A stretch of 63,592 nt of DNA, filler included, from Octopus bimaculoides (Eukaryota), in the NCBI RefSeq assembly GCF_001194135.2. It is 5 parts of 5 records of this genome, joined end to end, with 100 filler letters (N's around TTAATTAATTAA, not from the genome) between each part and the next. Parts side by side here need not be neighbours in the genome. Positions count along the whole stretch, not along the records: positions 1 to 31,274 come from NC_068983.1; positions 31,375 to 43,235 come from NC_068996.1; 3 more parts are not named here. The stretch is one strand, 5' to 3'. Position numbers and translations under genes: made by a program. Positions 16,411 through 62,732 of the stretch are shown here, in pieces (the first letter of the stretch is position 1; every line of letters begins with the position of its first letter). The notes beneath the pieces were generated by a model that did no database searches, had not been told where the DNA came from, and was given only the letters and a program-made list of their open reading frames with translations.

Positions 16411-16460
<50 letters not shown>

Positions 16461-16999
16461 GAGTGAGAGAGCAGTGCATGCCATCAAAGTGACACTGGGG
16501 TACAAATATACGAAGCCCAGTACACCCATCATAACTACCTGTCTGATGAAGGTACACCAGGCACATGCATCACAACTATATGTGCATAACATGGTGATCT
16601 CATTTCAAGATAAACAGCACATGACTTTGTAGGTGGGGCCCAGTTAGAATTTTCTTCATGTCAAGTAGCCCATCCCACTCAAATGGTCTCTGAATAAAGG
16701 TTGTTTAGGGATGCTGAACGAAATACTCATATTTTCAGAGGTGAATTATTCAAACCCCAAAGAATCCCTCTCAACACATAGCTATGATACTCCTCCACTA
16801 CTCCTGCTCATGATCAGAGATGCACATATTGTCAGCTATCAAGGGACATGCTCAACTGGTTATGGTCAAACAACTGACAAGCAAATCTGTGGTATTGAGC
16901 AGAATATTTGCTGTAGCCCATCTTTTATAGTAAGACAAAGCATGTACATGATAACACTTTCAATCAGTTAAGATCAAAAGCCATGAGAGCCAGTGCCTG

Positions 17000-17002
<3 letters not shown>
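16461..17002 (-). mobile_element. ~540-bp non-coding (TAA)n-embedded element D, copy 1
   Basis: Reverse-complement homolog of 37242-37781; (TTA)n on both flanks. Confidence 0.9.
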
Positions 17003-17058
<56 letters not shown>

Positions 17059-17085
17059 TATTATCATTATTATTTTTATTATTAA

Positions 17086-17450
17086 GGTGGCGAGCTGGCA
17101 GAATTGTTAGCATACTGGGCAAAATGCTTAGTGGCATTTCATTCGTCTTTACGTTCTGAGTTCAAATTCTGCCAAGGTTGACTTTGCCTTTCAGGGTCGA
17201 TAAAATAAGTACCAGTTGAACACTGGGGTTGATGTAATTGACTAGTCCCCTCCCCCAAATTTCAGGACTAGTGCCTATAGTAGAAAGGCTTAATATTATC
17301 ATCATTATTATTATTATTATTCCACTGAGGTTGATTTTGCCTTTCATCCTTTCGGGATTGATAAATTAAGTACTAGTTGAGTACTGGGGTCAATATAATT
17401 GACTGTCCCCCTTCCCCAAATTCCAGGCATTTTGTGTATAGTAGAAAAGA
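17086..17450 (+). mobile_element. SINE family A, one full copy plus one 3'-half copy
   Basis: ggtggcgagctggcagaattgttagc...gagttcaaattc head; second core at ~17325-17450. Confidence 0.85.
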
Positions 17451-17699
17451 TTATCATCATTATTATTATTGCAATAGAACTCTCCTTAAATGCCTCAAAA
17501 TACCTAGGTATACTGCTTTATGTTCTAAATCCAAATCCCAAAGTTGGCTTTGCTTTTCTTTCTTCCAGAGTTGATATAATAAGTACCAGTAATTAGTGAT
17601 ACATTTCATTTACTTTATTCCTTTCTCAATAAATTTAGGCCTTTCGTGCCTATGTAGAAAATGAATGGGGGTAGTTAGAAGTTATACTGATGATAAAGC

Positions 17700-17960
17700 T
17701 GAAGTTGGTGACGATTGGGTGAAAATGACAATGATGATGATGATGATGATAGTGTGGGAGGAGGAGGAGGAGGAGAAGAAGAAGGAGAAGAAGAAGAAGA
17801 AGAAGAAGAAGAAGATGGTGATTGATGGTAGCGATAATGATGATGGCAATGATGATGATGATGTTCGGGATGATGGTGGGGATTACAAGGACAATAGTTA
17901 TAATGATATATTGATATTGTTGATGATAATATATTGCTAAAGCTACCAGTGGTGGTGGTA
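17700..17960. repeat. GAT/GAG/GAA trinucleotide low-complexity tract
   Basis: Direct reading. Confidence 0.9.
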
Positions 17961-20925
17961 GTGATTGTGTTAACGACAATTATGATAGTGATGGAGATAA
18001 GAAGTGAAAGAGACCGACAGGAGATAGAGGGTGGCCAATTAAATTAGATGAAGGAAGAGAGTAATAAAGAAGGAATAGAAGGTGATCGGACGGGGCAGAG
18101 AAGGTCAAGAAACCAAATAGAGGATTAAAGAAGATAGGAAATAAAAGAAGCAGGAAAGTAGGGGGGAAGGGGACAAAAAAAAAAAAGAGAATAAGGATAT
18201 GGAATAACAGTGAATACCAAAAACCAAAAATCATTGATTCTATTGAATATTTTTAAAGCTGAGCAATTCTAGCCAGCAGCCTGATCTAAAAAGTCACCAA
18301 AGATAATCAATAAAATCAGCTAAATAGAATATGATATAAGTTCCAGGAACATATTTTCCTGGTAACTATCAGCTATCAGCTGATATCCAAAGCTGACTTA
18401 TTCCACTTGAAGTAATCATGTAAACAGCATACAATTTCTGAGACATAAATAGTTTGAATTCTTCAAATTTGTGTTAGATTACTTTTACGTTTTGCTACTG
18501 GTAAACATTTATTACACTACAAAGTAAACTCTATTGCACTATAAATACCAACGACTTCTTTTTATGCTGTAGAAACAGCAAAAGCATATACCATAGGAAT
18601 ATATATTATTTTACATGAAAAGGCTTATTTTTTCATGTCTCTCAAGTATTCATATCATCAAACTTTCTATATGTACTCAGTAGTAAGCAAAATCTGTAAT
18701 TTTGAGATTTTGTGATTTTGTAATTTTGTGTGTGTTTATACAGGATATGAGCATGATGTTTTTGTAAAGTTATTGCTATCAAAAAGTCACCAGTCTGCAG
18801 ATGTAATGGCTTCTGGTTCTTCAATTATAAAGTTAAATGTTTTCCATAATTTTTGACGATTATGTTTAGTTGTTTGATCAGTTCAACAACCAACTCATTG
18901 AATCAACATGAAAATGGTTAAGTATTTTACAGACACACCTATCTTTCATGCGATTCCTGGGTAGAATCAGTATGACACAGTGTGTGACAAGCTTGGACCT
19001 TAAAATTACAGGTATAATCCCTCCGGTTAGCTTCCACACAATTTCTGCTAGCACAATTTCACTCATAAGACTTGAATTGACCTGAGGTTACAGTAAAAGC
19101 TACTTACCTAAGATACCACTTGGTGAGCTTGAACCCAAGGCTTTATAATTTCAAAACAAACTTCTTAACCATTCAGCTGTGTTACAACTACAGTCCAAGC
19201 ACATGCCTCAGATAGTGACTTGATAAAACAGCAATTTGGTGGTCAAGATGCTGCAGTCATTGCTTGAGATGCTCTCCTAGAACCTGACTCAAAGAAGCAG
19301 TTACTTTTGCTATACAGATCATGTTTGAACAAACTTATGATCAAAAAAATTTCAACCATGGCCATCCTATTCTGTTTTTCATGCATAGTGTACCATAGAC
19401 TACATTATCCAAGAGGTGTTTTTTTAAGGGTGTGATTTGGAGATTTTACTGCTGTATCTTGCACTAAACAACTATTTTGAGACATTCATGCCAACTTGTG
19501 CAAGTAGTGTTGTTTCATAGATAATATCATTAAAATATGCCTATCAAAATGTTTTACAATACCATATGGTTAAGTAATTTCAGGAATCCAAAGCAGCTGT
19601 TCTTCAGAGAACTGTAATGAAGGTGGTACTGTTAACTTGCTGCTTGGTTCTTTATTGAAATTCATTCTGTTGCATGTATTATGCTTGTGTTTTTCTTGTG
19701 GACATTGGTCTGCAAACATTAAGGTTGGGCAAGAGCAATATCAGTCTCACTAATGTAGGAGTGGGAGCTGGAAAAGTCATGAGCACTATCTTTTCTTTTC
19801 TAGTTTACTTTTCAGAAAAATAAAGTTTTCAGAAGATTGAGAAAATACTCCTAAGATTGCTAGACTTCTACCCTGAAACTTTTCTTGATGTTTGGAAGGA
19901 AGCTTGGAGGAAAGAGTGATAGTGTTTAGAATATATTATAATATTTGAATATTATAAGTGAGACTAAGACAGTGGAACTCAGTGAAAGCTGTGCCATCAA
20001 AATGTAAATGCAATTTCAATTCATTTATTTTAATCACAAAATTACAGCAAATTGCAGTGTATAAACGGATAAAGCAAAGAGTTGGGTTAAAGGGTTTGAG
20101 AAAAGGACTAAAACTGGCAGTAGAGTTTCAAGAACTCCTAAGTGTGGTTCTTATAACTGAAATAACAAGACAACAATAACAACAACAAAAAAGCAGCTTT
20201 CATATGCTCATCAGAATCTATATTATCGCCATGGCAATGTAAGTGTTGGGAGAATAGCGTATGATAATGATAATAGTGCAGCTTACATACTTTTTATCTT
20301 CTAGTCTGTTAAACATATACTTTAGTTCAAAACAAAAATTGTCTATCAAATGGATGTTGTTTTTAGTCAGAAAAAGCTAAAATTTGTGAAATACTGATCT
20401 CATATTATTACTTGAACATGTTGAAAGCATTAAATAGATAAATAATTAATTTACATATTTATGTTTAATATCTCCTGCCTTTGGCATATTTCCCACATCA
20501 GAAGTACTGGGGCATCAACTAATCTCATTCTTTTCTTTTAATGTACGTCCTTGTGCTCAAGTTTGAAAAATCTTTTAAGTCTTTGTGTTAAAGTGAGAAA
20601 TCAATACCTGAAGTGAATTCTTTAAAGCTTTATATGTGAATTCTTTAAAGTTTTCTTCTAATTGTCATGTTATTTATTAAACAAGAAAAAATTTCCAGCT
20701 TCTGGACATGTTCCATCAGGAAATAATGGGATCTCAGTTTTAGAGGAAGCATTACAGTTAAAGCTATAAGAATTTATTTTTGAAACTTGCATTGATCATC
20801 TATGTAATTTAATACATATGTAGAGCCATCTTAATTTCTGCTAAGTTTGGAATGTTATTTGAAGTATTGTTTGAAAATAATAACTGAATAACAGTAAATT
20901 GTTGTTAATCTGGTGATTGTGAGGG

Positions 20926-20959
<34 letters not shown>

Positions 20960-21884
20960 GGTACTGCTGCTGTTGTTGTTGTTCATTGTAATGTGGTACT
21001 GGTGTTGCTCATGTTGGTGGTGTGTAACAAATGCTTTTATACAGAGTTAGTCAACCAAACATCTAGAAGTGACTTACTGAACCAAAATACAAAATATGTC
21101 ATGATGTTCTCTAGCCTGGAACCAGACTGTATCTTCTATCATCCTGTAATTGATTGTAACAAATATAATGTGATCTAGATAGGCTTCGTTTCCACTCAGT
21201 ACACAATGTTTGCAGAGTTGGGTGGTGATGACAGCATTAACAATACAGGCAGAGTTGGGGGATGATAACAGAGATAATATAATGATGGATAATACTAATT
21301 TGCTATCTTTGTCATTAAAGTGTCTGCTTCTCTATTCTACCATGGACCAGTAAAAAAGAAAAGTCCACACATTTTGTTTGTCACAATCCTAATGTCATTT
21401 CATTTATGAAGCACAACATTCTCAGATTTGATATCATCACTTCTTTCTATGTTTTCTGTTCTCTATTCTCAACTCTCTGTGTGTTTTCAGTTATCAGTAT
21501 TAACTTCTACTTAGCATTTTTTTTTTACTCATCAGATATCATCCTTTCATAGTATGCATATATCTGTATAGCCAACTCTCCTACACACATCAACAGGTAG
21601 ATAAGACTCTAAAATTAGTAGGTTAATGCTGATCAACATCATATATAAATCAGGTTTGAAAATAGTATATAAGATATTGTATTTTCCAGTATATAAATCA
21701 AATTTTTGCTGACCAAAATTTTCAGCCCAAAAAATGGCAGGTCATCATATACCCCAAGATGACTTTGGAGGACCAAAAATTCTGTGTTAAATGCAGCAGG
21801 ATTTGGAAAGATAGTGATATTTGAATGTTTACACATGTTTACACTATATACTACATCGGTCTTCTTGAGTATGTGGTGCATTGC

Positions 21885-22157
21885 TGTACTTGAGAAGACC
21901 CACCCACCAAAACAGAATTGAGATCTTAAAAACTAAGGTGCCACATAGAAAGCATTGGTGATGGTGCCATGTAAAAAGCACCCAGTACACTCTGTGGAGT
22001 GGTTGACATTAGGAAGAGCATCCAGTTAAAGAAACCAAATCAAAACAGAATATGGAACCTGGTGTGGCCCCTGACCTTGCCTGTTCCTGCCAAGCCATCC
22101 AACCCATGCCAACATGGAAAACAGACGTTAAATGATAATGATGATGATGATGATCAG
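21885..22157 (+). mobile_element. RTE-type 3' tail / SINE
   Basis: ggttgacattaggaagagcatccag ... caacccatgccaacatggaaaacagacgttaaa then (GAT)n. Confidence 0.7.
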
Positions 22158-23523
22158 TATGATAGAAAATATAGTACATATAGCAAGGAAAGAAGAATTA
22201 ATATCTTTATGGAAAAATAAACTTTCAATTTCTATGCTTTCATAACTTTGCTACAGTGCTAAATTACATTCATTTAAGTTTTTCAATAATACAGAGCTAC
22301 CACAACCTCCTTAAATAGTTTGTACCTAGCTTTAATAACTGCTTTATCCTAAGAATCTCTTAAATGTATTCAATAGTAGAAAATTTACAAAAAAAAAAAA
22401 AAAAAAAAAAAAAAAAGAAAAACGAAAAGAAAATCAGTGATGACTAAACATGCTGCTCACCATTTGATAAAGCTGTGTATATCCATTGCATTTTATGCCT
22501 AGATACTTTCTTAACTCATGCTTAACTCACTTGCAATCAGTCTTTCATGTAAATTAATATTGTGCATTCAATTAACTACATTCAACTCATCATATCAATT
22601 CATTCTTCTCAAGCCAATGCAGATGCTCCTCCACATCTTTTTATCATCATCACCGTTTTATCATCATTATCGTCGTTATCATTGTCGACGTCGTCATTGT
22701 CATCGTTATCATCATCCTCTTAGTGCCTAATTTTTTTGTTTGCATAGGCTACATGGAATTCGGTGAAGTAGATTTTCTATGACCTTGTGCTCTTCTAGTT
22801 ACCTATTCTCCCGGATTTCCAAGCAAGATAATATTTCCCCACAACTACACATACTTCCATGGAAGATTGGAAACAAATGACACTGCTTTTATGATGGGAA
22901 CACTAATTTGCAGCTATATGAAGAAAAAGAGGCACAAACACACACATATTTATATATATATATATAAACTGATGTAAGATCCAAAGATCGAGATGTAGGA
23001 AGAAATTAGCTTCAAGCAATCCATAGTAAATATATAAACCACCTTTCAGAAACAATAGTTGTTTGTTGAGGTAGAAGGTTGTGGATTTTCCTGTATTGAA
23101 GTACGATAAGTTGGAAAAAATTCTTTTTATATTTCTGTACCTCTTTGTGACAATGTAAACTTTCATTTAATCAAGATACCCTTGACCTGATGAGTAGCCT
23201 GCAGCATACACCTCACTTGGCTATTTACCACTTCTGAGGTTCTGCTTGCTATGAAACATTTGTAACCTGGAACTTACCTACTCCAATCCTTAACTCTTGC
23301 ATGTATATATATATATAAGATATTGGTATCTAGAAGACCCAAAGAGTGGCAGGTAATACTAAATGCTAAGGACAGACCATAGTTAAACTTTTGGTTCAAT
23401 CATGATACGAGTGAGGAGTTTAATGTAGGGCATGTATTAGCCTGCATATATATTAGACAAGAACAGATAACAAAGCTAAGGCTGTGAGGAGTTTTCAGGA
23501 CCATTTATAAGGAAAGAGATATA

Positions 23524-23562
23524 GTCTTACAGCTGTTTCTGGGATATCCCTTCATCAGAGGC
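23524..23562 (-). ncRNA. Minimal hammerhead-ribozyme-like motif (PLE pLTR)
   Basis: gcct-CTGATGA-a-GGGATATCCC-a-GAAAC-agct-GTA-agac. Confidence 0.6.
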
Positions 23563-24346
23563 AATGTGAGAGAGGTTTGAGTTCGAAATAAGGAAATCAT
23601 TATGGAAAAGGAGATAGGGAGAATAGAGGGAAATAAGAGAATGAAAGTAGAAATAACATAAAATATTGTCATTGCAGTTCCATTATTCGAATAAAGTGGT
23701 GTATAGAAGTGATAAAAAAGTTTCCTGTACATGGTATATAAGTTCTTATAGTAGTTCATGTTTAGTCATTTCAAAGTGTGGAACTGAGGATTCTGTGTTG
23801 CCCATTCGAAGGGGTTTTGTGGTGTGAATAAAAATTTGAGAATGTATTGGTAGTATTTGTGGACAAAAATAAAAAGGATAAAAGAGTAATGATAATAAAA
23901 AGAGAGAGAAAAGAAGAGGGAGAGAGAAGAAATAATGAAGAAAGGGTGACAGAGGTGAGAAAAGAAGTGTTAGTTGGTGGTCAAGATAATGTGAGGGGCT
24001 GGGAGAAGAGTGGGGGAGGGGTGGATAGGAAGAGATGGGAAGGTAATGAGCGAATTAGTGTGAGATATATGGGTAGGGGTGATATGATAGGGCTGTATTA
24101 AGGGATGGGTAGAGAAAAGGTATGGATGGGGTGATACCAAGGTAAATAGTAGTTTTAGTAATAAAATTCAAAGTGGAGGGAAGAATACAAGGATGTCAAA
24201 ATTTCTATAAATAGATGTATGAGATAAGTTGTTGTGATAGGTAAGAATCAGAGAGGAGGAATGAAGGTATGACATACGTATGCTCGCACCCACATACATA
24301 TACATGTGTGCATATGCATACATACATATACACACATACATATTGT

Positions 24347-24643
24347 TGGCACTCCGTCGCTTATGACGTCGAGGGTTCCAGTTGATCAGATCAACGGAAC
24401 AGCCTGCTCATGAAATTAACGTGCAAGTGGCTGAGCACTCCACAGACACGTGTACCCTTAACGTAGTTCTCGGGGATATTCAGCATGACACAGTGTGACA
24501 AGGCTGGCCCTTTGAAATACAGGCACAACAGAAACAGGAAGTAAGAGTGAGAGAAAGTTGTGGTGAAAGAGTACAGCAGGGTTCACCACCATCCCCTGCC
24601 GGAGCCTTGTGGAGCTTTAGGTGTTTTCGCTCAATAAACACTC
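24347..24643 (-). mobile_element. tRNA-derived SINE family C, cut by gap
   Basis: Reverse complement of 59248-59629. Confidence 0.9.
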
Positions 24644-25720
24644 NNNNNNNNNNNNNNNNNNNNNNNNNNNNNNNNNNNNNNNNNNNNNNNNNNNNNNNNN
24701 NNNNNNNNNNNNNNNNNNNNNNNNNNNNNNNNNNNNNNNNNNNNNNNNNNNNNNNNNNNNNNNNNNNNNNNNNNNNNNNNNNNNNNNNNNNNNNNNNNNN
24801 NNNNNNNNNNNNNNNNNNNNNNNNNNNNNNNNNNNNNNNNNNNNNNNNNNNNNNNNNNNNNNNNNNNNNNNNNNNNNNNNNNNNNNNNNNNNNNNNNNNN
24901 NNNNNNNNNNNNNNNNNNNNNNNNNNNNNNNNNNNNNNNNNNNNNNNNNNNNNNNNNNNNNNNNNNNNNNNNNNNNNNNNNNNNNNNNNNNNNNNNNNNN
25001 NNNNNNNATATATATACATGCATGTACCCACATTCATATACATACATACATAAAAATACATGCACATACATTTACACACACACATGTATCTGCTTGTTTG
25101 TCCAAATATGTAGTATTAAATGATCACGATCCTTGAAGTAAGAGAGGGGAGTTAAAGAATTAAAGATTAAAAATTAAAATGGAGATAAGGGAAAGTTAAG
25201 TAGGGTTCTTGGGAATTACCTAAGGGATGTTGTGGATATAAGCTGTGTGGTTATTTAGGTTGCATCTAGATTTGTGGTAAAATTTGAAGGTATGTAAAAA
25301 GTGGTGGTTGCATGAACCTAAGGCTTCATTATATTTATTCAGTAGTTTCGAGGAGTTGTGTTTTAAAAAGTGGAATGCCTCTTTTAGGCATAGCTTACAG
25401 GTTAAGTGTTGACCTTGGTATGGAAGCCCTGAATCTATTATGGACCATGACAAAATGTAGGGAATATTTCTATTTTTGAGATGATGTATGTGACTAGCGA
25501 GTGTTGTGGATTTACTGTGTTTCTCATATCTAAAAGAATTGGGATGAGCGGCATCTCACTGTTAAAATTTATGGTTGACTCTATATATACAGCTGTAGGA
25601 TTGTGTAATGTGTTGAGGACAGTGCATTTATAAATTACGTAAGAATTACATTACAATGGGTTTGTAGAGGGCAGATGGATGTAGGACGGGTTGAACTCAA
25701 ACATTTACCTCTCTCACATC

Positions 25721-25768
25721 GCCTCTGATGAAAGGATATCTATGATATCCCAGAAACAGCTGTAAGAC
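25721..25768 (+). ncRNA. Hammerhead-like motif, second pLTR copy
   Basis: gcct-CTGATGA-aa-GGATATC-tat-GATATCC-ca-GAAAC-agct-GTA-agac. Confidence 0.6.
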
Positions 25769-25835
25769 TATATCTCTTTCCTTATAAATGTTCTGAAAAC
25801 TCCTCACAGCTTTGACTTTGTTATCTGTTCTTGTC

Positions 25836-25874
<39 letters not shown>

Positions 25875-25927
25875 GAATAGAGATGTGTTTATGTGTTTAT
25901 ATATGAATATAGATGTGTTTATTTACA

Positions 25928-26282
25928 TGGCACTCCATTTGTTATGACGACAAGGGTTCCAGTTGATCCAATCAACAGAACAGCCTGCTCGTGAAATTAA
26001 CAGACACATGTATCCTTAACATAGTTCTCAGGGAGATTCAGCATGACACAGAGTGTGACAAGGCTGGCCCTTTGAAATACAGGTACGATAGAAACAAGAA
26101 GAAAGAGTGAGAGAAAGTTGTGGCGAAAGAGTACAGTAGGGTTCACCACCACCCCCTGCCAGAACTTTGTGGGCTTTAAGTATTTCCGCTCAATAAACAC
26201 TCACAACACCTTTGCTGGGAATGGAAACCATGATCCTATGACGGTGAGTGCACTACCCTAACCACTGGGCCACTGTGCCTCC
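25928..26282 (-). mobile_element. SINE family C, CpG-decayed
   Basis: Collinear with 59248-59629, with CG>TG/CA changes and an internal deletion. Confidence 0.85.
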
Positions 26283-26284
26283 AT

Positions 26285-26318
26285 ATATATATGCATACAT
26301 ACATACATACATATATAT

Positions 26319-26360
<42 letters not shown>

Positions 26361-26436
26361 TGTATGTATGTATGCATATATGGTGTATGTGTGTGCATGT
26401 ATATATGTGTGTGTGTATGTATATATATATATATAT

Positions 26437-26473
<37 letters not shown>

Positions 26474-26830
26474 NNNNNNNNNNNNNNNNNNNNNNNNNNN
26501 NNNNNNNNNNNNNNNNNNNNNNNNNNNNNNNNNNNNNNNNNNNNNNNNNNNNNNNNNNNNNNNNNNNNNNNNNNNNNNNNNNNNNNNNNNNNNNNNNNNN
26601 NNNNNNNNNNNNNNNNNNNNNNNNNNNNNNNNNNNNNNNNNNNNNNNNNNNNNNNNNNNNNNNNNNNNNNNNNNNNNNNNNNNNNNNNNNNNNNNNNNNN
26701 NNNNNNNNNNNNNNNNNNNNNNNNNNNNNNNNNNNNNNNNNNNNNNNNNNNNNNNNNNNATGTGTGTGCATGTATATATGTGTGTGTGTATGTATATATA
26801 TATATATATATACACACACATACATACACA
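26285..26830. repeat. TA/CA compound microsatellite with gap 26474-26759
   Basis: Direct reading. Confidence 0.9.
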
Positions 26831-27460
26831 CAGTAAACCTCTATCTGTTTTGAACTACCAACTTCCCACACAAGGATTTGGTCAACCCAGGGCTACAGTT
26901 GAAGACAATTGGCCAAAGTGCCATGTAGTAGAACTGAACCCAGTACCCCATGACTAGAATGCAAACTTCTTAACCACAAACCCATAAATATTTCAGTTTT
27001 TTTTTTTGTTTTACAGTGGCAATTTTTACTTTAAGCAAATTCTATTATTTGACTTCAAATACCTGAAAGTGATTAAAGTTATATTATTACTTTTTTTAAA
27101 TTGCTTGAAATCACCCAAAAATTACTTGTGAGATAGTAACTTGTCTGAAACAGTCACTTAGTAAATCTAGAGATACATTGTTGTTTGACCATCAGTGACC
27201 GATGAATGAACTGTCTGGGGAAGAGTTAATGAAAGATAATTCGAAGTCAAAGGTATTTTATTGAAGGCTGGTACGTTCTTTAAATGTCTCCCAACAGAGT
27301 CAGGCACTTATATCAGATTTTAAGCTCGATTAATTAATGTTTGAAATTGTTGTTTGACATATTATATGAAATTGCTAATATAAATTGGATTGCTGCCAAA
27401 AATGAAGAACATCAAACAATTACCTCATGCAACTCAGATGGCAGTTTCTTTTCTTTTTAG

Positions 27461-27573
27461 AAAATATTTTTGAATTACAAACTCTTACTAATATCTGTAA
27501 TTTGATTGAGGAAATGTCCAGTATCAATGTGCAGTTATTTACCTGTATCCTGTATTCTTTGGCTGGTCCGCTA
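27461..27573 (+). CDS. Candidate internal exon of an unidentified host gene
   Basis: Acceptor ttcttttctttttag, donor CTA|gtaaat; open frame (E)NIFELQTLTNICNLIEEMSSINVQLFTCILYSLAGPL; no homology recognised. Confidence 0.3.
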
Positions 27574-29191
27574 GTAAATATTAGAATTTTTGTTTGTTTT
27601 TGCTGGGAGAAAGTTTTTAAATTTTTTTTGTTTTCATACTGTTGATAGCATTTCTTTCTATGCAGATAATAAATATAGCAAGGTTTATTACATTTGAATT
27701 TTAATTACCCTTCAAAATATGTGACTCTAATGCCATTCACAACAACTTTTTCATTGGTTGTAATACAAGTATTGCTGTGTTTTTCTTAAGACGATTTTGT
27801 GTCAGGCATTTATTCTTTACATAAATATGCTGACATGTTTGCAATATTCTGAAAGTTAATAAAGAGATACTAAATAGAATTTGTGCTGTGTTTGAACTGA
27901 GAATTCAGTGAATATGTTTTATTTTTATGTTTTGTTGTTTTTCTTGTTTAAGAATTAATTTGAAATGAAATTCAGCGATAAATTAATTAGCTTAGATTTT
28001 AACTCTATTGAAAATAAAGAAAAAATTGAAAGCAGAAAATCTAGAAAATCATTTAGTGGAAGAAAGCTGTAGAGCAGTTTTTGGACAATTTATTTCAAGA
28101 AGTTGGGTGGGGAGAACCATTTCAAAATATTCATTGACTTCAAAAATGGCAGAAGAAAATGGGAAGAAATCAACCCAGAGAGAGGTGGGAATGGATTGGA
28201 AATACTTTCAGAAAATCTTTATTTGAGAATTAATGAGTTGACATTAAAGAGTGATCTAAAAAAAAGTTACAACAAAATTTAGCTTATCTATTTTAGAGTT
28301 TAATGTTGAGAATCACAGAAAGTGAGTATAGAAAAGTGTATATGTTGAAATGCAATATATACATACAAACATACATACATGCATACACATTCTCACACAT
28401 ACATGCACACATACACATATATAAATACATATATACGTGTGTTTGTTTGTATGCACATACACACACATACACTCATACAGAATGCCTTCTTCAACATTAA
28501 GAAACTGGAATTATTGTGGTTCTGATAAAATATGTAGTAAATGACTGCACATATGTTGACACACAGCGGGAACGCCGTCTTTTTTTAAAGGCGGTGCTCC
28601 AGTATGGCTGCAGTCAAATGACTGAAACAAGTAAAAGAGTAAAACAGAGTATATTCACAAACAAATAAATACATAACTATACATCTCTCTCTCTCTCACC
28701 CTCTCTCTCCCTCTGTTTGTCTGTTTAGCTATCTATCTATCTCTATATACAGAGAGATAAAAAAAAGTAAATAAAGTTGGAAAGGCTCATAAGTATATTT
28801 TAGAGACTGTTTAGTAACATACATTTTGCAAATTTATTTACTTTTTTAACTATAATTTTTGATTTGTATGAACTCCTAACCACTTTTCATCTATCTATCT
28901 AGCTAGCTAGCTAGATAGATAGATACACACACACACACACACATACCTAAATAACAAAAGACAGAAAACAAGCAAATTACAAGGGATGTTCACAATTAAT
29001 ATTATTAGGTTTACACACAAGGAAGGAATAAGTGTTACAGAGTAAAAGTTATAAAATTTCAGGTTTAGTCCTTTGTTAAATGCTAGAGGAGAGTGCAGGA
29101 GAGCCTGGGAAGAGAAGAGAGGAGTTAATAAGGGAGAAAACCAGGAAAGTAGTCCACATAGGTTAGGTTCACACATATATATGTGTGTGTT

Positions 29192-29252
<61 letters not shown>

Positions 29253-31274
29253 GCATGTGATTGTACATACTTATGCATGAATGGACACATGTATACATGC
29301 TTATATGTATTTATGTATGTGAAACACAAGTGCAAAATAATGATTATATATATAGAGCAGTGGTATCAAAACCCCTCATACACCAAAGGAACCAATAATC
29401 GGGGCAAAACCACATATGGGTGTGGGGATGTGAAACCCCACCACCCTGAAGAAATCAGCCAAAGAAGTGCAAAATTATGGTGATGTTCCAGTGTGACCAC
29501 AGCCGCATGGCTGAAATGAATAAAAGAATAAAAGCATATATATGTGTATAATGTCAGTGTTCCACACTGGCATGAATTGGACAGTTTGTCACAGTTAAGT
29601 AATTTATTTGAACATGCTACCTTTCTAGATATATTGGAGGATGCTGTCTTGTTTGTACTTACATTTTTGGTATAGTTTTTTAGCATGAGAAAGTGATGTG
29701 GCTACGGCCCTGATATTATTATAATCTTCTAGTTTCAAATGAGTCATAATAAAGAACACCAAGAAATATGAAGACACAGGTTAAAATTGACAGCCACATT
29801 TATTTTTCCACTAATAGAACATACAGCAAACTGGTGCAACATGAATAATATTGTTAACAAAAATACATTGGTTCCTCATGCAGCTTGTATATGATAATGT
29901 GTGCGGAAAAAGCACAAAGCATGGCATCAAAGATTTCTGCTGACCACCCTCTCCTCTCTGAGGATGCTTAGAGGAAATTCTTTATTTATAGCTGTCAGTA
30001 GGCTCAAAATGCACTGTGCTTTTCTGGTCTTGCAAGTGGTTTGATTGGATAACTTAAAGCATCTAATCAGCATGAACGAATTTGGCCATATGACCTTTTG
30101 TAGAAAACAGGCGAAATACATCACTTTGCACTCTTTAAGTCTAAACATGCTACAGTTTCTCTGGTCAGCTGTTTTTCTCAACTCTAGTAACTTTACAACT
30201 GTGTGTAGGGCACATTTTATTGAGGCCCCAGCATTAAAGAAGTTGTCATGTCCTCAGCAAGATCAAGGAGTTCGCTATACACAATGTTGTCTCTGTCTAA
30301 TCACCAGTTATTTTACAGAGCACACTGAATGTGTTTTATTGTGGTACTAGCACTAGAGAGCTTCCTTGGTTCCCTGTAAGATCTGTGTCTATTTAGTCTC
30401 GTTTCTTTTAAAAGCTGGGATTGAGAGTGTGAATAGAACAGGAGTGATGATCAAAAGTGTAAGTATGGCAGAAGAGTGCTAGAGTATTTACAGGGAGGGT
30501 GTGTGTGTGTGTCTGTGCGTGTGTGTGTGGGTGTGTGGATGAAATGGAATAAAAAGAAAAAAACACCTGCATGTTGGTGGTTGGGAGTTAGTAGCTAGCA
30601 GGAGCAGATGCAATTGCATAAAAGGTATGTCATTGCAAGAGAGAGTGAGTAATGGATAGTAACAGAGATGGTAAGAGAAGCCGATGTCATCTAAAAAATG
30701 GACGAGTGGGAGAGAATCTGTAGAATTACACACACACACATACACACACATGCCCATATGTACATACATATATGCATACATTCATATATACATACATATA
30801 TCTATGAATATAGAGATAGGTTAGGTTAGTGGGTAATGCAACATAAACAACATTGTAGAGATCAGTCTGTAATGAAAGAGAAACAGCTATAACAGTATAC
30901 TTTCTATTTATGTATGAGCATATAACACTGTACTATATAAACAAACACTCTTGCTTTACTTACTGCATGTACTCTGTGACCTACATAACTGTAGATTCCA
31001 ATCAAATGACATTCAGACTATAATACAAGTCCTCACAGTTTCCATTTGGATATTGAGGAATACATACGATGTTCTAAATACAAAATACTCGTCTAATTCA
31101 TATATATTTATCTCTCTCTACACACACATCTTAATCTAAGAATACAATATTATAAATCTATTACAGCTGATTTTACTGATGAGTTTCACACTGGATATAA
31201 GATAACTGGATGGTTATCAAATACATATGCTCTTCAGATATAATATGTGTATGTATATATATATATATATATAT

Positions 31275-31374
31275 NNNNNNNNNNNNNNNNNNNNNNNNNN
31301 NNNNNNNNNNNNNNNNNNTTAATTAATTAANNNNNNNNNNNNNNNNNNNNNNNNNNNNNNNNNNNNNNNNNNNN
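31275..31374. other. Artificial scaffold join 44N+TTAATTAATTAA+44N
   Basis: Identical structure at 43236-43335, 59992-60091 and 61659-61758. Confidence 0.95.
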
Positions 31375-31412
<38 letters not shown>

Positions 31413-32279
31413 CGCACACACACGCACACAGCGTCAGAACTTCATATACACGAAAATTAAGCGCACTCTAAAGCATTAAAATAGTAATATATTTTTTAGC
31501 ATGTTGATTGTAATGGTCTGTCATAAAGTATCCGTTGGTCTCACACCTATAAGACTGTATAGACGACCCAATAGACTGAAATGGCTAGGAGGAGATGATG
31601 TCATCGTCAGTTAATTATGTTAACTAAAAATATACACCCGGAATGGTCGTGCAGGAGGTATTATAAGCGGGTTACGGTTATTTCCCTTACATTATTTCCA
31701 GCAGTGGGTAATATTTGAAGATGCTGTCGCGGTTCTATTTAACGAACGGGAGATTTGAAGCTTGTGGCAGACAACGTCTTACATGTGGGCGTTGTCTAAA
31801 TACTTCTTTCCTTGAGTTTAAAAAGGTCTTCGGGTCAAGCGAGTCCTTTTTAAAAGATTCTTGCTCTTTCTGCCAAGCAAAGCTACATCGTTTGCTACCG
31901 TTTATATTTAATGTTCCTTAGGAAACAATGATCACACATGTGAGGGATAAGTAAGTCGTATTTAGGAGAAAATAGAAAAATTTGAAAAAGGAGACAAACT
32001 CTTAGGATGTTATTAAAACATTTATATCGTTATATCTTCTACATGTGTTCCGATGAATGCATTCAAAATACGTTCGACAGGAAGAATTATGGTCAGCTAT
32101 GAATCAATCTCATCAGGATAGATATAAGAAATCACACTCGTCAAATAGACTTTTTACTAATATAGAAAGTCCTAGAATATGTGACGTATTTATATGCATA
32201 TATATATATATAATTTTTAAAAATCGTGTAGTAAATAAATAAACCAACACATGCTAAATAGACGAACAGAAAATACACA

Positions 32280-32830
32280 AGGTCACCAACTCCTCATCAA
32301 TTATCGGCCTGAGGATCGAATGCAATAATCAGCCATTATCGATTGTCTCCACTCTAGAGGCACCGGAAAGAAACTTTCCGGGAGTGGGAACAAAACATAA
32401 CAAAACGTGGCGGGCTCGAGACGAGACTGTAAGTGGATAGACGAGAGACAAAACAATAAACAGAATAACGGATTAGTGCCAGACGAAGACAAAAATTAAT
32501 GATAAAAAAATAATACATATGCAACAAAAAATGCCTTGGGACTGCAAGACAGACAAAAATGGGTACAGCGATGAAGAAAAGAAAACTGTCATAATGGACT
32601 CTAGAAACAAGAGGGATACAGTGAGGAGCAAAGATAATCGTAACCAGTCCGGTCCAAGGAAACGCGAAAAGAATGACACCGCATTAGGCTGCCACGGGTC
32701 ACGTGATAGTGGTAGGACAGTAACAGGGCGGGAAAGAGACGAAAAGAGAGAGAGGAAATTAAAAGAGAAGCACAGTAAAGAGACAGAGTTACACAAAAAT
32801 AAGTATATTTCTACAAATGAGTAAAATTTT
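32280..32830. promoter_or_regulatory. CpG-retaining unique region with E-box GTCACGTGA (32698-32706); possible promoter/5'UTR
   Basis: Many CpGs, no repeat similarity recognised, USF/TFE-type E-box. Confidence 0.3.
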
Positions 32831-33674
32831 AAGGAGTGCGTGCGTTACATAAATAATATTTTCAGAATTAAATAAAACTACATATATATACTTTTATTCT
32901 TTTACATCTTTTAATCATTTGACTGCGGCCATGCAAGAGCACCACCATAGAGATTTAGTCGACCAAATCGACCTCAAAACTTATTCTTTGTAAGCCTAGT
33001 ACTTATTTCATGAGGTACTATTATAGAACCGCTAAGTTACGGGGACGAAAACACGAATATCAGCGCTTGCACCTATTCTTGTAAGTTTTTCCAATATTTG
33101 AAAATATTTCAAAATGTTTGAAAAACCTACTCACTGGAGTGAAGAGATGGAGTTTATGCAATCATATATATATACATATATATATACAATAGCAAAAGAA
33201 AAATCGAGAGTATAAAAATAAAAATATAAATATAAATATAAATAAAATCCCTACAATTGTTTCGATTCAAACACCAAAACCAAAAGCAAATTCATAAAAA
33301 TTAATATCATGGAAATATTTTTGCGTAAGACTCTTATCAGGGTAACGGACGAAAATGACATAATGAGAAGTTTGAAATCACAGTCTGTTTTGTGATTTCA
33401 AATTATATTATTGTAATAATAATATAACATATTAATAAATTAACATATGTCAATTTGAACTATCCATTTTCCTTTTATTATTGTATATTATGTATATATT
33501 CCCATTTATATTGGAGAAATTTTTCTACTAAATATGTATCATATATTGAGTATTGAACAGTTAACAAGTCAAAATATTGGATATTTTACATTCTTATAAG
33601 AGGAGCTTATCTCCTTGCATTGGATATANNNNNNNNNNNNNNNNNNNNNNNNNNNNNNNNNNNNNNNNNNNNNN

Positions 33675-33742
<68 letters not shown>

Positions 33743-33839
33743 GTGTGTGTGTATGACTCTGAGTATATGTGTACATCCATGCATACATATCCATTCATGC
33801 ATATATACATATCGAACATCTTGAAAGTTCTAGTGCCAA

Positions 33840-34070
33840 ACTTTGTGATTGTAAGCTTTACCAATCCCCGAACTGGACGCTACTGCATAGCAAAGGGCCC
33901 TGTAAAAGTTAGGGTTCAAAGCTCCAACATTTTCAATAACGTGCCACAAATATGTACAGATCTACAAGAAATAGTATAGAATATACTTTAAAAAATTGTA
34001 TCTGAAGTTCCAAATGAATTCATATCAGGGCAAGAACCACAAAGGAGGGCGAGATATCCAGCTCCCGCAT
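33840..34070 (+). mobile_element. CR1-like LINE 3' end, decayed
   Basis: NPRTGRYCI.KGP...VPNE-like terminal residues. Confidence 0.45.
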
Positions 34071-34178
34071 ACACAGAAAAAAATATACTCAGGAGTGTTA
34101 ATATGAATTAAATTTAAAACCACATTAGTGGTGAAACTCCAGCATGCCCACAGATTTAGATGGACAATTTAAATAGGA

Positions 34179-34186
<8 letters not shown>

Positions 34187-34231
<45 letters not shown>

Positions 34232-34465
34232 NNNNNNNNNNNNNNNNNNNNNNNNNNNNNNNNNNNNNNNNNNNNNNNNNNNNNNNNNNNNNNNNNNNNN
34301 NNNNNNNNNNNNNNNNNNNNNNNNNNNNNNNNNNNNNNNNNNNNNNNNNNNNNNNNNNNNNNNNNNNNNNNNNNNNNNNNNNNNNNNNNNNNNNNNNNNN
34401 NNNNNNNNNNNNNNNNNNNNNNNNNNNNNNNNNNNNNNNNNNNNNNNNNNNNNNNNNNNNNNNNN

Positions 34466-34517
<52 letters not shown>

Positions 34518-34824
34518 GCATACATACATACATATGAGTATAAGAGTGGATATTAAATAATTGTTTGTATGTTTATTCGTGTACGTATGTGTGTGCGTTT
34601 CCCTATGTGTGCATTTATAGACATACGCAATTCATATAAACATATATTTATAATCTCTAGAAATGCTTGGATTCTCTCAGAGTAATGATTCTATGATTCG
34701 AAGACTCTATGGTTGTATGAATGGGTTCTCTCCATAATACTACAGAAGTCACTCAACGAACGGAACTTTTCGAAAGTTCAATATTGATATATTAGATATA
34801 CATCATTGCGTATGTGAACATGTA

Positions 34825-34871
<47 letters not shown>

Positions 34872-34988
34872 GCATGTATGTATATACATACATATATATA
34901 TCTATCTATCTCTCTATATTTATATATATGCTTATATATGTATCGGTATGTATATATATATATGTGTGTGTGTGTTTGTGAGTATGCG

Positions 34989-35027
<39 letters not shown>

Positions 35028-35364
35028 GTGTAAACACAACACACACTCACACATACACATACACACTACACACATATATCGGTGCTTATATAGACATATG
35101 TATATACGTATATGTGTATATACACACGCTTCCACCACATATATATTTACATCTAGATATACAAAGCATCAAAGCATTCATGTGCATAACCCTAAACACT
35201 CCCGAGTACACATCTACTCACACACAGGAAAACACACACATAAATACAATACTCATACACATATAATTGTGTATTCTGTGCGTGTACGTGCACTTATATT
35301 TATGTTTGTGCGCGTATGTGTGCATGTGTGTGTATGTGTGTGCATGTGTGTGTGTATGTTTGTG

Positions 35365-35409
<45 letters not shown>

Positions 35410-35420
35410 AACAGAACTGT
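34187..35420. repeat. TA/CA microsatellite field with gap 34232-34465
   Basis: Direct reading. Confidence 0.9.
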
Positions 35421-35630
35421 TTGAGATTATCTGAAGAGCGGAACTGATTCATCTTTATCCAAAATTATACTGTCAGTCTACGATCAGAAAAGTCTGCAAG
35501 AATTTTTATAAATTTCTCTCCCTCCAAACCTATTGATGTGAAGCACATATAAATATAGATAAATGCATATAAATTATAAAATCTCAGGAAATTAGACAGG
35601 TGTATATGCACACACACATTGACTAACACA

Positions 35631-35681
<51 letters not shown>

Positions 35682-36360
35682 ACATACACACACACACACA
35701 TATATATGCTCTTACAGATTGACGCACGTATGTGTGTGTTTCTATATTCTAGTTTATACATATACACATATATGTTTGTGCATTTTTCTCTATTTTTGAA
35801 GATGTTGTATATGTCTGAAAGTGTATATGTCTCTTCGCTTATATCAACGCCCAAAGACACTCATTTTCCTAGTATGTGTATGTGCTAAAATGTTTATACA
35901 TATACATATATCTTTGAGTATATATTTCTGTATATGTGTGTCTTTGTGTGCGTGTATTAATAGTGTATTTTATCTTTGTCATTGTATGAATATAAACTAA
36001 GTTACAGAAGATCAAACGTTACTTCAGCCCTCCCTGAAAAAATATCAAAAATAAAGAACAATGGATAGAAATGAAATGTAAAATATCCACCTCGTTTAGT
36101 ATTTTGTCATAAAACAAAGACGATCTCTATAATGTATGTTGACTATTATTTTATAAAATATACCACAATTTTGAAAATATTAAGGGAAATACTCAAGACA
36201 TTAAAGGAACGATTCGGAACAAGAATATACACATTGGTGTTCCTAAAGGAAATACACTCCTATGCATTTAATCAGTGTAAATACAATTGGATATAAACTG
36301 ATATGAAATATGTATATATGCGATTATATATATATATATGGTGAGAGAAAGTAAAAACTA

Positions 36361-36595
36361 AGGCGGCGAGCTGGCAGATACGTTAGTGCACCGGGCGAAA
36401 TGCTTAGCGGTATTTCGCCTGCTGTTACGTTCTGAGTTCAAATTCCACGAGGTCGACTTTGCCTTTCATCTTTTCGGGGTCGATAAATTAAGTACCGGTT
36501 ATCCGCTGGGGTCGATATAATCGACTTAATCCCTTTGTCTGTCCTTGTTTGTACCCTCTATGTTTAGCCCCTTATGGACAATAAAAAAAATAAGA
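36361..36595 (+). mobile_element. SINE family A, best-preserved copy
   Basis: ggcggcgagctggcag A-box, gagttcaaattcc B-box, gactttgcctttcatcttttcggggtcgataaattaagtacc core, A-rich tail. Confidence 0.9.
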
Positions 36596-36609
36596 AAGTA
36601 AAAACCAGT

Positions 36610-36980
36610 TTGATGCAATGAATAATCTCGAAAGCGGTGAGGTTAGTAAAGAGGCCAAACATGTTATCTTCAGTTCGGTTTTGTACGTATCCTCACCTAT
36701 CTTCATGAATGTTGGATAATGACCGAAAGAAGACGATCGCGAATACAAGCAGCCGAAATGTGGGAAGAATCTCAGGAGTAACGTTACCCGACAATGAACG
36801 TAGCTCAGAGATTAGAGTTCCTCCAGGTCGAACCGCTACATCTTTGTATTGAGAGGTCATACATCCAGCAAAACGGACATATGATTAGAAAGTTACAGAG
36901 AAGAATCGCAAGACAGCTTCTTCAAGTCTAGCCAATAGGAAGGAGACATAATGGCAGGAGAACGAGATGGTTGGATGATA
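36610..36980 (+). mobile_element. RTE-like RT C-terminal fragment
   Basis: GHMIRK...IARQLLQV*PIGRR...RTRWLDDI. Confidence 0.5.
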
Positions 36981-37120
36981 TAAGATCACCATATCGCGCA
37001 CATATGGTTGTGATGCATATGCCTGGTGTACCCTTATCAGACGGGTAGTCATAATGGGTATAATGGGCTTCGTATGTTTTACCCAAGTGTCACTTTGATG
37101 GCATGCTCTGCTCTCTCACT
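36976..37120 (+). mobile_element. Element D, 5'-truncated copy
   Basis: 3' 145 bp of D followed by (TAA)n; joined to the RTE fragment at shared tgatat. Confidence 0.85.
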
Positions 37121-37241
37121 TAATAATAATAATATAAGTAGTAGTAGTAGTAGTAGTAATGATAATGATAATAATAACAACAACAACATTAATAATAATA
37201 ATAGTAATAATAATAGTAATAATAATAATAATAATAATAAT

Positions 37242-37781
37242 GCCCTGATGGCTCTCATGGCTTCTTATGTTAACTGATTGGAAGTGTTATCATGTACATT
37301 GTTTTGTCTTGGTATAAAAGATGGGCTACAGAAAATATTCTGCTTAATACCACAGATTTGCTTGTCAGTTGCTTGATCTTAACCAGTTGAACATGTCCTT
37401 TGGTTGGCTGACAATATGTGCATCTCTGATCACGAGCAGAAGTAATGGGGGAGCATCCTAGCCATGTTTTGAGAGGAATTTTTTGGGGTTTGAATAATTC
37501 ACCTTTGGAAACATGGGTGTTTCGTTCAACATCCTTAAACAACCCTTATTCAGGAACCTTTTGAGCGGAATGGGCTACTCGACCTGAAGAAAATTCTAAC
37601 TGGGCCCCACCTGCAAGGTCATGCGCTGTTTATCTTGATATGAGATCACCATGTCGCGCACATGTAGTTGTGATGCATGTGCCTGGTGTACCCTTATCAG
37701 ACGGGTAGTCATGATGGGTATAGTGGGCTTTGTATATTTTACCCCAGTGTCACTTTGATGGCATGCCCTGCTCTCTCACTC
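37242..37781 (+). mobile_element. Element D, near full length
   Basis: (AAT)n on both flanks; gccctgatg...ctctctcactc. Confidence 0.9.
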
Positions 37782-37852
<71 letters not shown>

Positions 37853-37863
37853 TGATGATAATA

Positions 37864-38336
37864 GCAGTATCAGGTAGTTACTCTCATGGCTTTTGATCTT
37901 AACTGATAGGAAGTGATATCATGTACATTGTTTTATCCTGGTATAAAAGATGAACCGCAGTGAATATTCTGTTCAATAACACAACTTTATTGGTCAGTTG
38001 TTTGACCTTAACCAGTCGAAGCCTTTGTGGCTGACGTTATGTGCATCTCTGATAACGAGCTGAAGTGGTGGGGGAGCGTCATAACCATGTGTTGAGAGGA
38101 ATATTCAGGGTCCTTTTGTGTGGGATGGGCTGCTCAACCTGAAGAAAATTCTAACTGGGGCCCACTTGCAACGTCATGTGCTATTTGTCTTGATATAAGA
38201 TCACCATGTCGCGCACATATTGTTGTGATGCATGTGCCTGATGTACCCTTATCACACTGATAGTCATGATGGGTATATTGGGCTTCGTATATATTACCCC
38301 AGTGTCTCCTTGATGGCATGCGCTGTTCTTTCACTC
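37864..38336 (+). mobile_element. Element D, internally deleted copy
   Basis: Same termini as 37242-37781; AAT-type flanks. Confidence 0.9.
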
Positions 38337-38364
38337 AATAATAATAATAGTAATAATAAATTTC

Positions 38365-62600: not shown

Positions 62601-62732
62601 TTCAATGTCAAAATAAGCAGAATTGCAAAAATGCATATATGAATCTCCACCCCCTCCTTCTCTCGACATAAATATAAATATAATATATATATATAGATAT
62701 ATGCATGCATATATCATATATACATATATACG

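What the first reader, a model, noticed from the sequence alone, without database searches (positions are those of the whole stretch)
16411..38345. A ~540-bp non-coding element with fixed ends that inserts strand-specifically into (TAA)n
Seen: four copies (16461-17002 minus; 36976-37120 5'-truncated; 37242-37781; 37864-38336). All share the same 3' end (...ctctctcactc) followed by (AAT)n on the element's sense strand. The three long copies start within ~15 nt of each other after another AAT run. There is no ORF, TIR or recognisable pol III A/B box, and three copies are tandem. Known: R4/Dong elements target TAA repeats, and R2 has short internally deleted parasites (SIDEs) with 5' HDV-like ribozymes. 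Inference: this is a target-specific non-autonomous passenger of an RLE retrotransposon, i.e. a SINE-like element without a tRNA head. Its 3' end matches none of the R4 3'UTRs in this window, so the partner is unidentified. It may already sit in repeat libraries as unclassified. This is my best candidate for an undescribed system.
Basis: partly seen in the sequence, partly recalled or inferred. Interest (0 to 1): 0.75.

Follow-up and report, generated by a model that had tools for sequence, protein, structure and literature searches.

The report
Dong-hitchhiking repeat in TAA microsatellites
A 556-base non-coding repeat with thousands of copies in what is likely an octopus genome sits in one orientation inside TAA microsatellites and likely spreads by borrowing the enzyme of TAA-seeking Dong retrotransposons, whose predicted tail hairpin it appears to keep without keeping their sequence.

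Summary
The four copies are real and belong to a high-copy family (1,940 exact matches to its last 34 nt; estimated 13,000-28,000 copies). The unit is 556 nt, has a fixed 3' end followed by (AAT)n in 81 of 85 3'-intact alignments (background 2.6%), a main 5' start and many 5' truncations: the footprint of target-primed reverse transcription. Dong/R4 LINEs of more than ten families use the same microsatellite in the same orientation. No Dong family shares its sequence at either end, so it is not a strict SIDE, a long 3'UTR or a solo LTR. No tRNA head, pol III boxes or known ribozyme were found. New here: nt 459-499 is predicted to fold the hairpin that five Dong families carry in their 3'UTRs (same loop, same register, bulged A as in one family); my own tests support this (p about 0.005-0.025, partly post hoc), two Infernal models do not (E about 7). 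Nt 103-272 is shared with a Chapaev3-like MITE. Works like Entamoeba EhSINE1 and R2 SIDEs; I found no Dong passenger in print. The scan noted this element before in another genome. New variant of a known kind.

The parts
16461..17002 (-). Copy 1, unit nt 15-556
   Evidence: 91% to consensus; self hit G000 C3
17003..17056 (-). (TAA)n tract upstream of copy 1
   Evidence: 18 units
16414..16460 (-). (AAT)n tract downstream of copy 1
   Evidence: 15 units
16746..16915 (-). Segment S (unit nt 103-272) shared with a Chapaev3-like MITE, in copy 1
   Evidence: 94% to the MITE consensus
36976..37120 (+). Copy 2, 5'-truncated (unit nt 411-555), no TAA upstream
37121..37239 (+). Degenerate TAA/TAG/CAA tract between copies 2 and 3
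37240..37781 (+). Copy 3, full-length start, 14-nt deletion near the 5' end
37685..37724 (+). Predicted Dong-type 3'UTR hairpin 1 in copy 3 (outer stem, inner stem with bulged A, five-base loop at 37703-37707)
   Evidence: not detected by Infernal
37745..37770 (+). Candidate Dong-type hairpin 2 (CAG...CTG stem) in copy 3; weakly predicted
37782..37863 (+). (AAT)n tract between copies 3 and 4
   Evidence: 22 pure units, then degenerate
37864..38336 (+). Copy 4, unit nt 11-556 with internal deletions, the most diverged
   Evidence: (13.7%)
38360..40090 (+). Decayed, 5'-truncated Dong/R4 LINE (family F0) in the same tract and orientation, right behind copy 4 (end approximate)
   Evidence: RT and endonuclease-region matches at 38423-39879, 3'UTR before a TAA run
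549..630 (+). 3'UTR of Dong family FI carrying the same two-hairpin layout (comparison, not part of the element)
   Evidence: found by a model that was not trained on it, 15.9 bits, E 0.02

Best explanation
This is a high-copy, 556-base non-coding repeat that sits strand-specifically in (TAA)n tracts and is likely copied in trans by the reverse transcriptase and restriction-like endonuclease of Dong (R4-clade) retrotransposons. Shown: fixed 3' end before (AAT)n, graded 5' truncation, same strand and target as Dong, no coding frame. Inferred steps: (1) an RNA of the unit plus a few UAA repeats is made, likely by polymerase II (four T4 runs and no A/B boxes argue against pol III; the promoter or 5' processing step is unknown, the 102-nt head hairpin is the candidate); (2) a Dong protein likely binds the 3' hairpin at nt 459-499, a predicted structural homologue of the hairpin in Dong 3'UTRs; (3) the endonuclease would nick the TTA strand of a microsatellite and prime cDNA there; (4) the 5' end would join by short annealing to the target, which fits the cluster of starts at nt 1, 8-9 and 15 and the occasional loss of the upstream tract. 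The unit is a mosaic: head (1-102), a segment shared with a MITE (103-272), a middle of unknown origin, and a tail likely descended from an old Dong 3'UTR.
For: 3'-intact alignments followed by TAA-phase repeat: 81 of 85, by the opposite strand 1 of 85; near-full 5' ends preceded by it: 54 of 66 scorable; background 2.6% of 165,202 random 18-mers. Tail-selected sample: 18 of 31 copies start at nt 22 or before, 13 are truncated at nt 72-522. Random 498 kb: 6 copies, 4 cut at the 5' side, 1 at the 3' side. Dong-A 5'-truncated copies show the same flank, 16 of 21 scorable; 132 of 212 Dong 3' ends have a TAA run within 450 nt; RT domain confirmed (PF00078). Dong targets TAA in insects, molluscs and cnidarians (PMC7998251 passage; PMC3812793 passage). 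Hairpin: covaries among 13 Dong UTRs of three families (19 cells with two-sided change against 5.6 in shuffles); the element consensus forms it with pair probability 0.95 or more in four folding windows and in 20 of 25 full copies; a score trained on Dong UTRs only peaks at the expected place in the element in all five leave-one-out models, 13.4 bits with no unrelated position that high among 380,023; hairpin 1 alone 17 of 3,000 shuffles, 44 of 980,127 random positions; descriptor for both hairpins 1 of 20,000 shuffles; family F10 has the same loop and bulged A.
Against: No Dong family with a matching tail or head was found: best local match 2 of 200 shuffles among 19 clusters, not significant; Dong-A 5' end unrelated; ORF-end-plus-hairpin pattern 0 hits; the one Dong end that carries the element's last 33 nt is a single chimera. 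Two Infernal models built from Dong UTRs gave the element 7-8 bits, E 6.5-7.4, in only 2 of about 15 copies searched and none in the window; they also scored true F10 copies weakly (16.8 and 11.7 bits, one missed). My descriptor and scoring ranges were set after I had seen the element. Hairpin 2 is weakly predicted (0.26-0.8 in the consensus, 0 of 25 full copies above 0.5), and three single copies folded over the last 100 nt take another fold. Only 12 of 36 scorable 5'-truncated alignments have TAA upstream (this set includes split pieces), 0 of 4 in the random sample; one copy lies in a (TA)/(CATA) tract (L338). RNA reads show no strand bias and no pile-up of ends.
Confidence: 0.75

Rival explanations
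1. Dong-mobilised, but without an inherited 3'UTR: the hairpin likeness is chance or convergence, and Dong proteins take up any RNA that ends in UAA repeats (relaxed recognition).
For: No primary-sequence match; Infernal not significant; five or more Dong clusters lack the full two-hairpin layout by the descriptor.
Against: Register, loop and bulge match at the 3' end. Relaxed uptake predicts many unrelated TAA-flanked retrocopies; the multi-copy sequences abutting TAA tracts were mostly Dong ends, this element and two tRNA-head SINEs, though 143 of 524 were singletons and were not examined.
Confidence: 0.12
2. A strict internal-deletion derivative (SIDE) or long 3'UTR of one LINE family that I did not sample, with matching head and tail sequence.
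For: The assembly is gappy (17% N in the random sample) and only one Dong family's 5' end could be read; 5' ends of F4, F5, F8, F10 and FI were not recovered.
Against: 0 of 31 tail-selected copies continue upstream as the UTR of an ORF (two are joined to Dong sequence at unrelated points); none of 29 head-selected copies continues into a LINE 5' region (one 3'-cut copy meets mid-RT sequence); in a DNA run the only frequent non-indel loose ends among the six shown are the two MITE junctions (882 rarer ones not shown).
Confidence: 0.08
3. Mobilised by an APE-type LINE that makes (TAA) tails; the microsatellite link is a tail plus passive clustering.
For: Many truncated copies lack upstream TAA; a tRNA-head SINE uses the same microsatellite.
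Against: Upstream TAA in 54 of 66 near-full copies cannot come from a 3' tail; that SINE lies on the opposite strand and shows long target duplications in several copies, whereas none was seen by eye for this element in copies without upstream TAA.
Confidence: 0.04
4. Solo LTR or DNA-type element (MITE).
For: Fairly fixed length; 170 nt shared with a MITE.
Against: No TG...CA ends, no terminal inverted repeat, one-sided truncation, 3' microsatellite; the shared part excludes the MITE's TIRs.
Confidence: 0.01

Closest known systems
EhSINE1 of Entamoeba histolytica (PMC2996970, passages; PMC1635306, passages)
   Same: About 500-600 bp, non-coding, no identified small-RNA precursor, moved by an RLE-type LINE, body unrelated to the LINE.
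   Different: EhSINE1 shares about 70 nt of sequence with EhLINE1, makes target duplications and has no fixed target sequence; this element targets (TAA)n and matches its presumed partners only in predicted structure.
R2 SIDEs and R2/R1 hybrid SIDEs of Drosophila (PMC3414825, abstract and Discussion)
   Same: Non-autonomous passengers of a site-specific non-LTR element, inserted at the partner's target, 3' end used for recognition.
   Different: SIDEs are made of recognisable R2/R1 ends, start with an HDV-like ribozyme, live only in rDNA and are rare; this element has no detected ribozyme, no recognisable LINE head, and thousands of dispersed copies.
Dong elements, R4 clade (PMC7998251 and PMC3812793, passages; Dong-R4 in octopus, PMC8967140 passages and PMC13282606 parts 1-2)
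   Same: Same target, same strand, same 5'-truncation pattern; predicted shared 3' hairpin.
   Different: Dong encodes RT and endonuclease; this element encodes nothing.
tRNA-derived SINEs of octopus and other molluscs (PMC4758252, passages; OK/OR names recalled and seen in its citations)
   Same: Short, non-coding, high-copy retroposons.
   Different: No tRNA head or A/B boxes, four T4 runs, opposite strand in the microsatellite compared with the tRNA-head SINE next to copy 1.
Chapaev3 DNA transposons (PMC4079192, passages)
   Same: The MITE that shares nt 103-272 has CAC...GTG ends and TWA duplications.
   Different: Applies to the MITE only; no transposase-coding partner was found.

Membership tests
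Non-autonomous non-LTR retroposon (TPRT) | Fixed 3' end with simple-repeat tail and variable 5' truncation | tested here: met
Non-autonomous non-LTR retroposon (TPRT) | No coding capacity | tested here: met
   six frames of consensus; Dong C-terminal profile on 21 sequences, best E 1.7
Dong/R4-dependent passenger | Same target and strand as Dong | tested here: met
Dong/R4-dependent passenger | 3' end shared in sequence with a Dong family | tested here: not met
   (19 clusters from 132 of 212 ends)
Dong/R4-dependent passenger | 3' RNA structure shared with Dong 3'UTRs | tested here: inconclusive
   for; against:
Dong/R4-dependent passenger | Mobilisation by Dong protein in trans | not testable with these tools
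   needs an assay
SIDE (R2-type) | 5' HDV-like ribozyme | tested here: not met
   Rfam none; strict descriptor from recall 0 hits, relaxed one uninformative and no positive control run
SIDE (R2-type) | 5' end derived from the partner's 5' end | tested here: inconclusive
   no match to Dong-A; other families' 5' ends not recovered
Classical SINE | tRNA, 7SL, 5S or snRNA head with pol III boxes | tested here: not met
Solo LTR | TG...CA ends, 4-6-bp duplication, symmetric decay | tested here: not met
Chapaev3-like MITE (the segment-sharing family) | CAC...GTG termini, long TIRs, TWA duplication | tested here: met
   about 110-nt imperfect TIRs; identical 3-nt flanks in e.g. L156, L167, L170, L176, L180; hallmarks from PMC4079192
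Chapaev3-like MITE (the segment-sharing family) | Related transposase-coding element | not tested
   none among 60 loci; no protein search made

The most novel reading that the evidence does not exclude
A microsatellite-targeted, non-pol III SINE-like family that parasitises Dong through a conserved RNA fold alone: its tail has lost all detectable sequence identity to the LINE but keeps the Dong 3'UTR hairpin, which would define the so far unmapped RNA signal read by Dong/R4 proteins, and its unrelated 102-nt head would supply an unknown way to set the 5' end.
Probability: 0.45. Interest if true: 0.65.

Novelty: new variant of a known kind. Interest (0 to 1): 0.5.

Why it matters
Known passengers of restriction-endonuclease LINEs are few (EhSINEs, SIDEs). 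A family of over ten thousand copies riding Dong would show that microsatellite-targeting LINEs can carry large non-autonomous loads in animals. The hairpin shared by five Dong families, and apparently by the passenger, is a concrete candidate for the RNA signal these site-specific enzymes recognise, which can be tested with one protein and a few RNAs. It also names a likely unclassified part of octopus repeat libraries.

Tried and rejected
Rfam over the region and over one copy: nothing relevant. HDV, hammerhead core and pol III box scans, motifs recalled: no convincing match. DNA search with the last 63 nt returned nothing because common words are skipped. The frequent loose end at unit nt 272 looked like a partner LINE 5' end; it is a MITE junction. 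RT query of window 58248-58718 led to a non-TAA R4 lineage with no link to the element. Long 'open frames' in search tables were N gaps. An nhmmer hit of the element profile on a Dong F5 end is a one-off chimera. Tree of Dong C-termini: the hairpin-bearing families group only weakly (80/73), two rows were mis-extracted (FIa, F6a), seven of 32 rows were missing or too short; not used as evidence. Covariation within the element cannot be tested from dead copies of one master. Not in print as far as searched: searches listed no paper on a non-autonomous Dong passenger; subscription journals, Repbase, Dfam and the O. vulgaris library and supplement of PMC13282606 were not seen and may hold it as Unknown or unclassified SINE.

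Full report
Observation. The window is a pack: copy 1 lies on contig C3 and copies 2-4 in another stretch, whose neighbouring Dong maps to C16. The genome has 2.34 Gb in 145,327 contigs; from its size, its tRNA-head SINEs and Dong content I infer an octopus (inference; earlier scan notes say the same).

Family and copy number. Copy 1 gave 10,579 first-look candidates; the 40 scored were nearly all full length at about 90%. Their flanks show that the unit starts 14 nt upstream of copy 1, giving 556 nt. The last 34 nt match exactly 1,940 times and a 22-nt head word 1,761 times, reversed controls 0. Of 41 alignments not chosen by these words, 6 and 5 carry them exactly, which gives about 13,000-14,000 copies; 6 copies in 498,092 non-N random bases (7 hits, one an N-gap duplicate) give 12 per Mb, up to about 28,000. 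Both are rough.

Ends and target. Over 107 distinct alignments (MITE hits set aside, 56), 81 of 85 3'-intact ones are followed by a TAA-phase repeat, 1 by the opposite strand, 3 by neither; 68 have the junction ACTC|AAT. Of 68 that start at nt 25 or before, 54 have TAA upstream, 12 not, 2 are at N. Of 39 5'-truncated alignments, 12 have it, 1 the opposite strand, 23 not, 3 at N; this group includes split pieces of deleted copies. Background is 2.6%. In the 30 loci chosen only by the tail there are 31 copies: 18 start at nt 22 or before (9 at nt 1), 13 at nt 72-522; upstream TAA by the strict rule 16 of 18 and 5 of 11 scorable, by eye with degenerate runs 17 of 18 and 8 of 11. In head-chosen loci 22 of 29 scored have it. 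Dong-A copies truncated at the 5' side have it in 16 of 21 scorable (9 of 30 left out: 5 at locus edge, 3 at N, 1 no hit). Starts cluster at nt 1, 8-9 and 15, where the element's first letters continue the repeat; some copies join directly to upstream Dong or SINE sequence (L125, L132, L142). This is what target-primed reverse transcription with annealing at the 5' junction would leave (established knowledge of R2-type elements; PMC3414825 Discussion mentions upstream deletions).

The LINEs. Window fragments are R4/Dong-like. From 212 Dong 3' ends in the loci, 132 have a TAA run within 450 nt and fall into 19 clusters, of which three are artefacts. Dong is reported to target (TAA)n in insects, molluscs and cnidarians (PMC7998251, passages). 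One family could be read to its 5' end, which opens with 24-nt tandem repeats and does not match the element. A second RT lineage in the window is not TAA-linked.

No sequence partner. The element's last 150 nt match no cluster significantly (best 2 of 200 shuffles, 19 tests). No tail-chosen copy is the UTR of an ORF, no head-chosen copy runs into a LINE 5' region, a pattern joining a Dong ORF end to the element's hairpin has 0 hits, and the one F5 end with the element's last 33 nt is unique. Contigs of a DNA run show only indel artefacts and the two MITE junctions among the six loose ends listed.

A structural link. Families F4, F5, F8, F10 and FI share a 3'UTR layout: a 7-bp outer stem, a 6-bp inner stem closed by C-G on a five-base loop with GG, then a CAG...CTG hairpin. 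On 13 copies of F4, F5 and F8 the structure covaries (related sequences can beat these shuffles, so this is support, not a probability), and an Infernal model from them finds held-out F10 (25 bits) and FI (15.9 bits). The element's nt 459-499 lies in register with F4/F5 and has the bulged A and loop of F10. The consensus folds this hairpin with probability 0.95 or more in four windows; 20 of 25 full copies and about 60% of 74 copies do. A descriptor finds both hairpins in the element and in 1 of 20,000 shuffles, hairpin 1 alone in 65; it recovers F4, F5 and F10 but not the F8 consensus. A log-odds score trained on 20 Dong UTRs peaks at the expected position in every leave-one-out model, at 12-16 bits against 14-38 for most held-out Dong copies, with no unrelated site above 12.7 in 380,023 positions; hairpin 1 alone reaches 9.0 bits, matched by 17 of 3,000 shuffles and 44 of 980,127 random positions, several of them other Dong UTRs. 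Against it: both Infernal models score the element at 7-8 bits, E about 7, in 2 of about 15 copies and in none of the window's; my ranges were chosen after seeing the element; hairpin 2 is weak; three single copies cut to 100 nt fold otherwise. I put descent of the tail from a Dong 3'UTR at about 60%.

The shared segment. Nt 103-272 is 94-96% like part of a MITE of about 480 nt with CAC...GTG ends, about 110-nt imperfect TIRs and TWA duplications, the marks of Chapaev3 (PMC4079192, passages). Its two words match 377 and 516 times. None of 30 loci chosen on the MITE's left part continues into the element beyond nt 275. MITE copies are older (9.6% non-CpG divergence, 54 copies) than element copies (5.4% in 24 tail-chosen, 6.8% in 24 others). 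No element copy has more than 3 of 7 MITE alleles, and those with 3 are the most diverged. Two CpG sites of the element are decayed in the MITE, and the segment abuts the right TIR; this favours capture by the MITE from an early copy, while the age order favours the reverse. Direction unresolved.

How the RNA is made. No tRNA, no Rfam family, no A/B box pair and four T4 runs on the sense strand argue against pol III. No HDV-like or hammerhead fold was found (descriptors from recall, no positive control). Nt 1-102 is predicted to form one long hairpin (z -3.3 in L013, -0.8 in L021) that ends where the shared segment begins. In one RNA run 10,209 of 12.9 million reads lie on the element, equally in both directions, without a pile-up of ends: no sign of a discrete transcript, and no proof against one.

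Comparison and verdict. It works like EhSINE1 (PMC2996970, passages: 500-600 bp, about 70 nt shared with EhLINE1, no precursor RNA) and R2 SIDEs (PMC3414825), but fails the defining tests of a SIDE and of a classical SINE. Paper searches listed no Dong passenger; PMC13282606 (parts 1-2 of 3 read; supplement and library not seen) lists active Dong-R4 and hundreds of unclassified SINE families in O. vulgaris, where it may sit. An earlier scan note (e1-10333100) reports a 558-base element of this kind in another genome; that is an AI note, not independent support. New variant of a known kind; interest 0.5; confidence in Dong dependence about 0.85 in all, in the full reading with an inherited hairpin lower.

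Noticed in passing
L151-L210 (G000 C1, C2); shared part in window 16746-16915 and 37327-37497: A Chapaev3-like MITE of about 480 nt with about 110-nt TIRs and TWA duplications carries nt 103-272 of the element; no coding partner seen.
   Followed up: partly
window 17084-17300 (+) and 104 hits in the random sample: A 212-nt tRNA-head SINE uses the same microsatellite on the opposite strand ((ATT)n tail) and shows long target duplications in several copies, so two retroposon systems share one tract in opposite orientations.
   Followed up: partly
window 549-630, L126, L133, L229, L322, L361-L380: Five Dong families share a covarying two-hairpin 3'UTR; shorter related hairpins appear in other families (F0, F2, F17). 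Candidate recognition signal for Dong proteins.
   Followed up: partly
L311, L314, L316, L317 (5' ends): Full-length Dong-A begins with 1-6 tandem copies of a roughly 24-nt unit directly after the TAA tract, possibly an internal promoter.
   Followed up: no
window 45974-47330, 57135-58718, 61938-62623 (-): A second R4-like RT lineage whose relatives are not flanked by TAA runs.
   Followed up: partly
L031:386, L033 and others: A short tRNA-like SINE of about 80 nt also ends before AAT runs on the Dong strand (10 hits, 9 in the random sample); possibly a second passenger.
   Followed up: no
L326:3674-3769 (-): A Dong F5 3' end fused to the element's last 33 nt through a short shared word; unique in the genome.
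   Followed up: yes
window 49813-50475 (+): A Tc1/mariner-like transposase fragment (recognised from the translation, not searched).
   Followed up: no
run X24, L011 places 1625 to 1486: 649 RNA reads show the first 140 nt of the element repeated head to tail, likely one expressed locus with a duplicated head.
   Followed up: no
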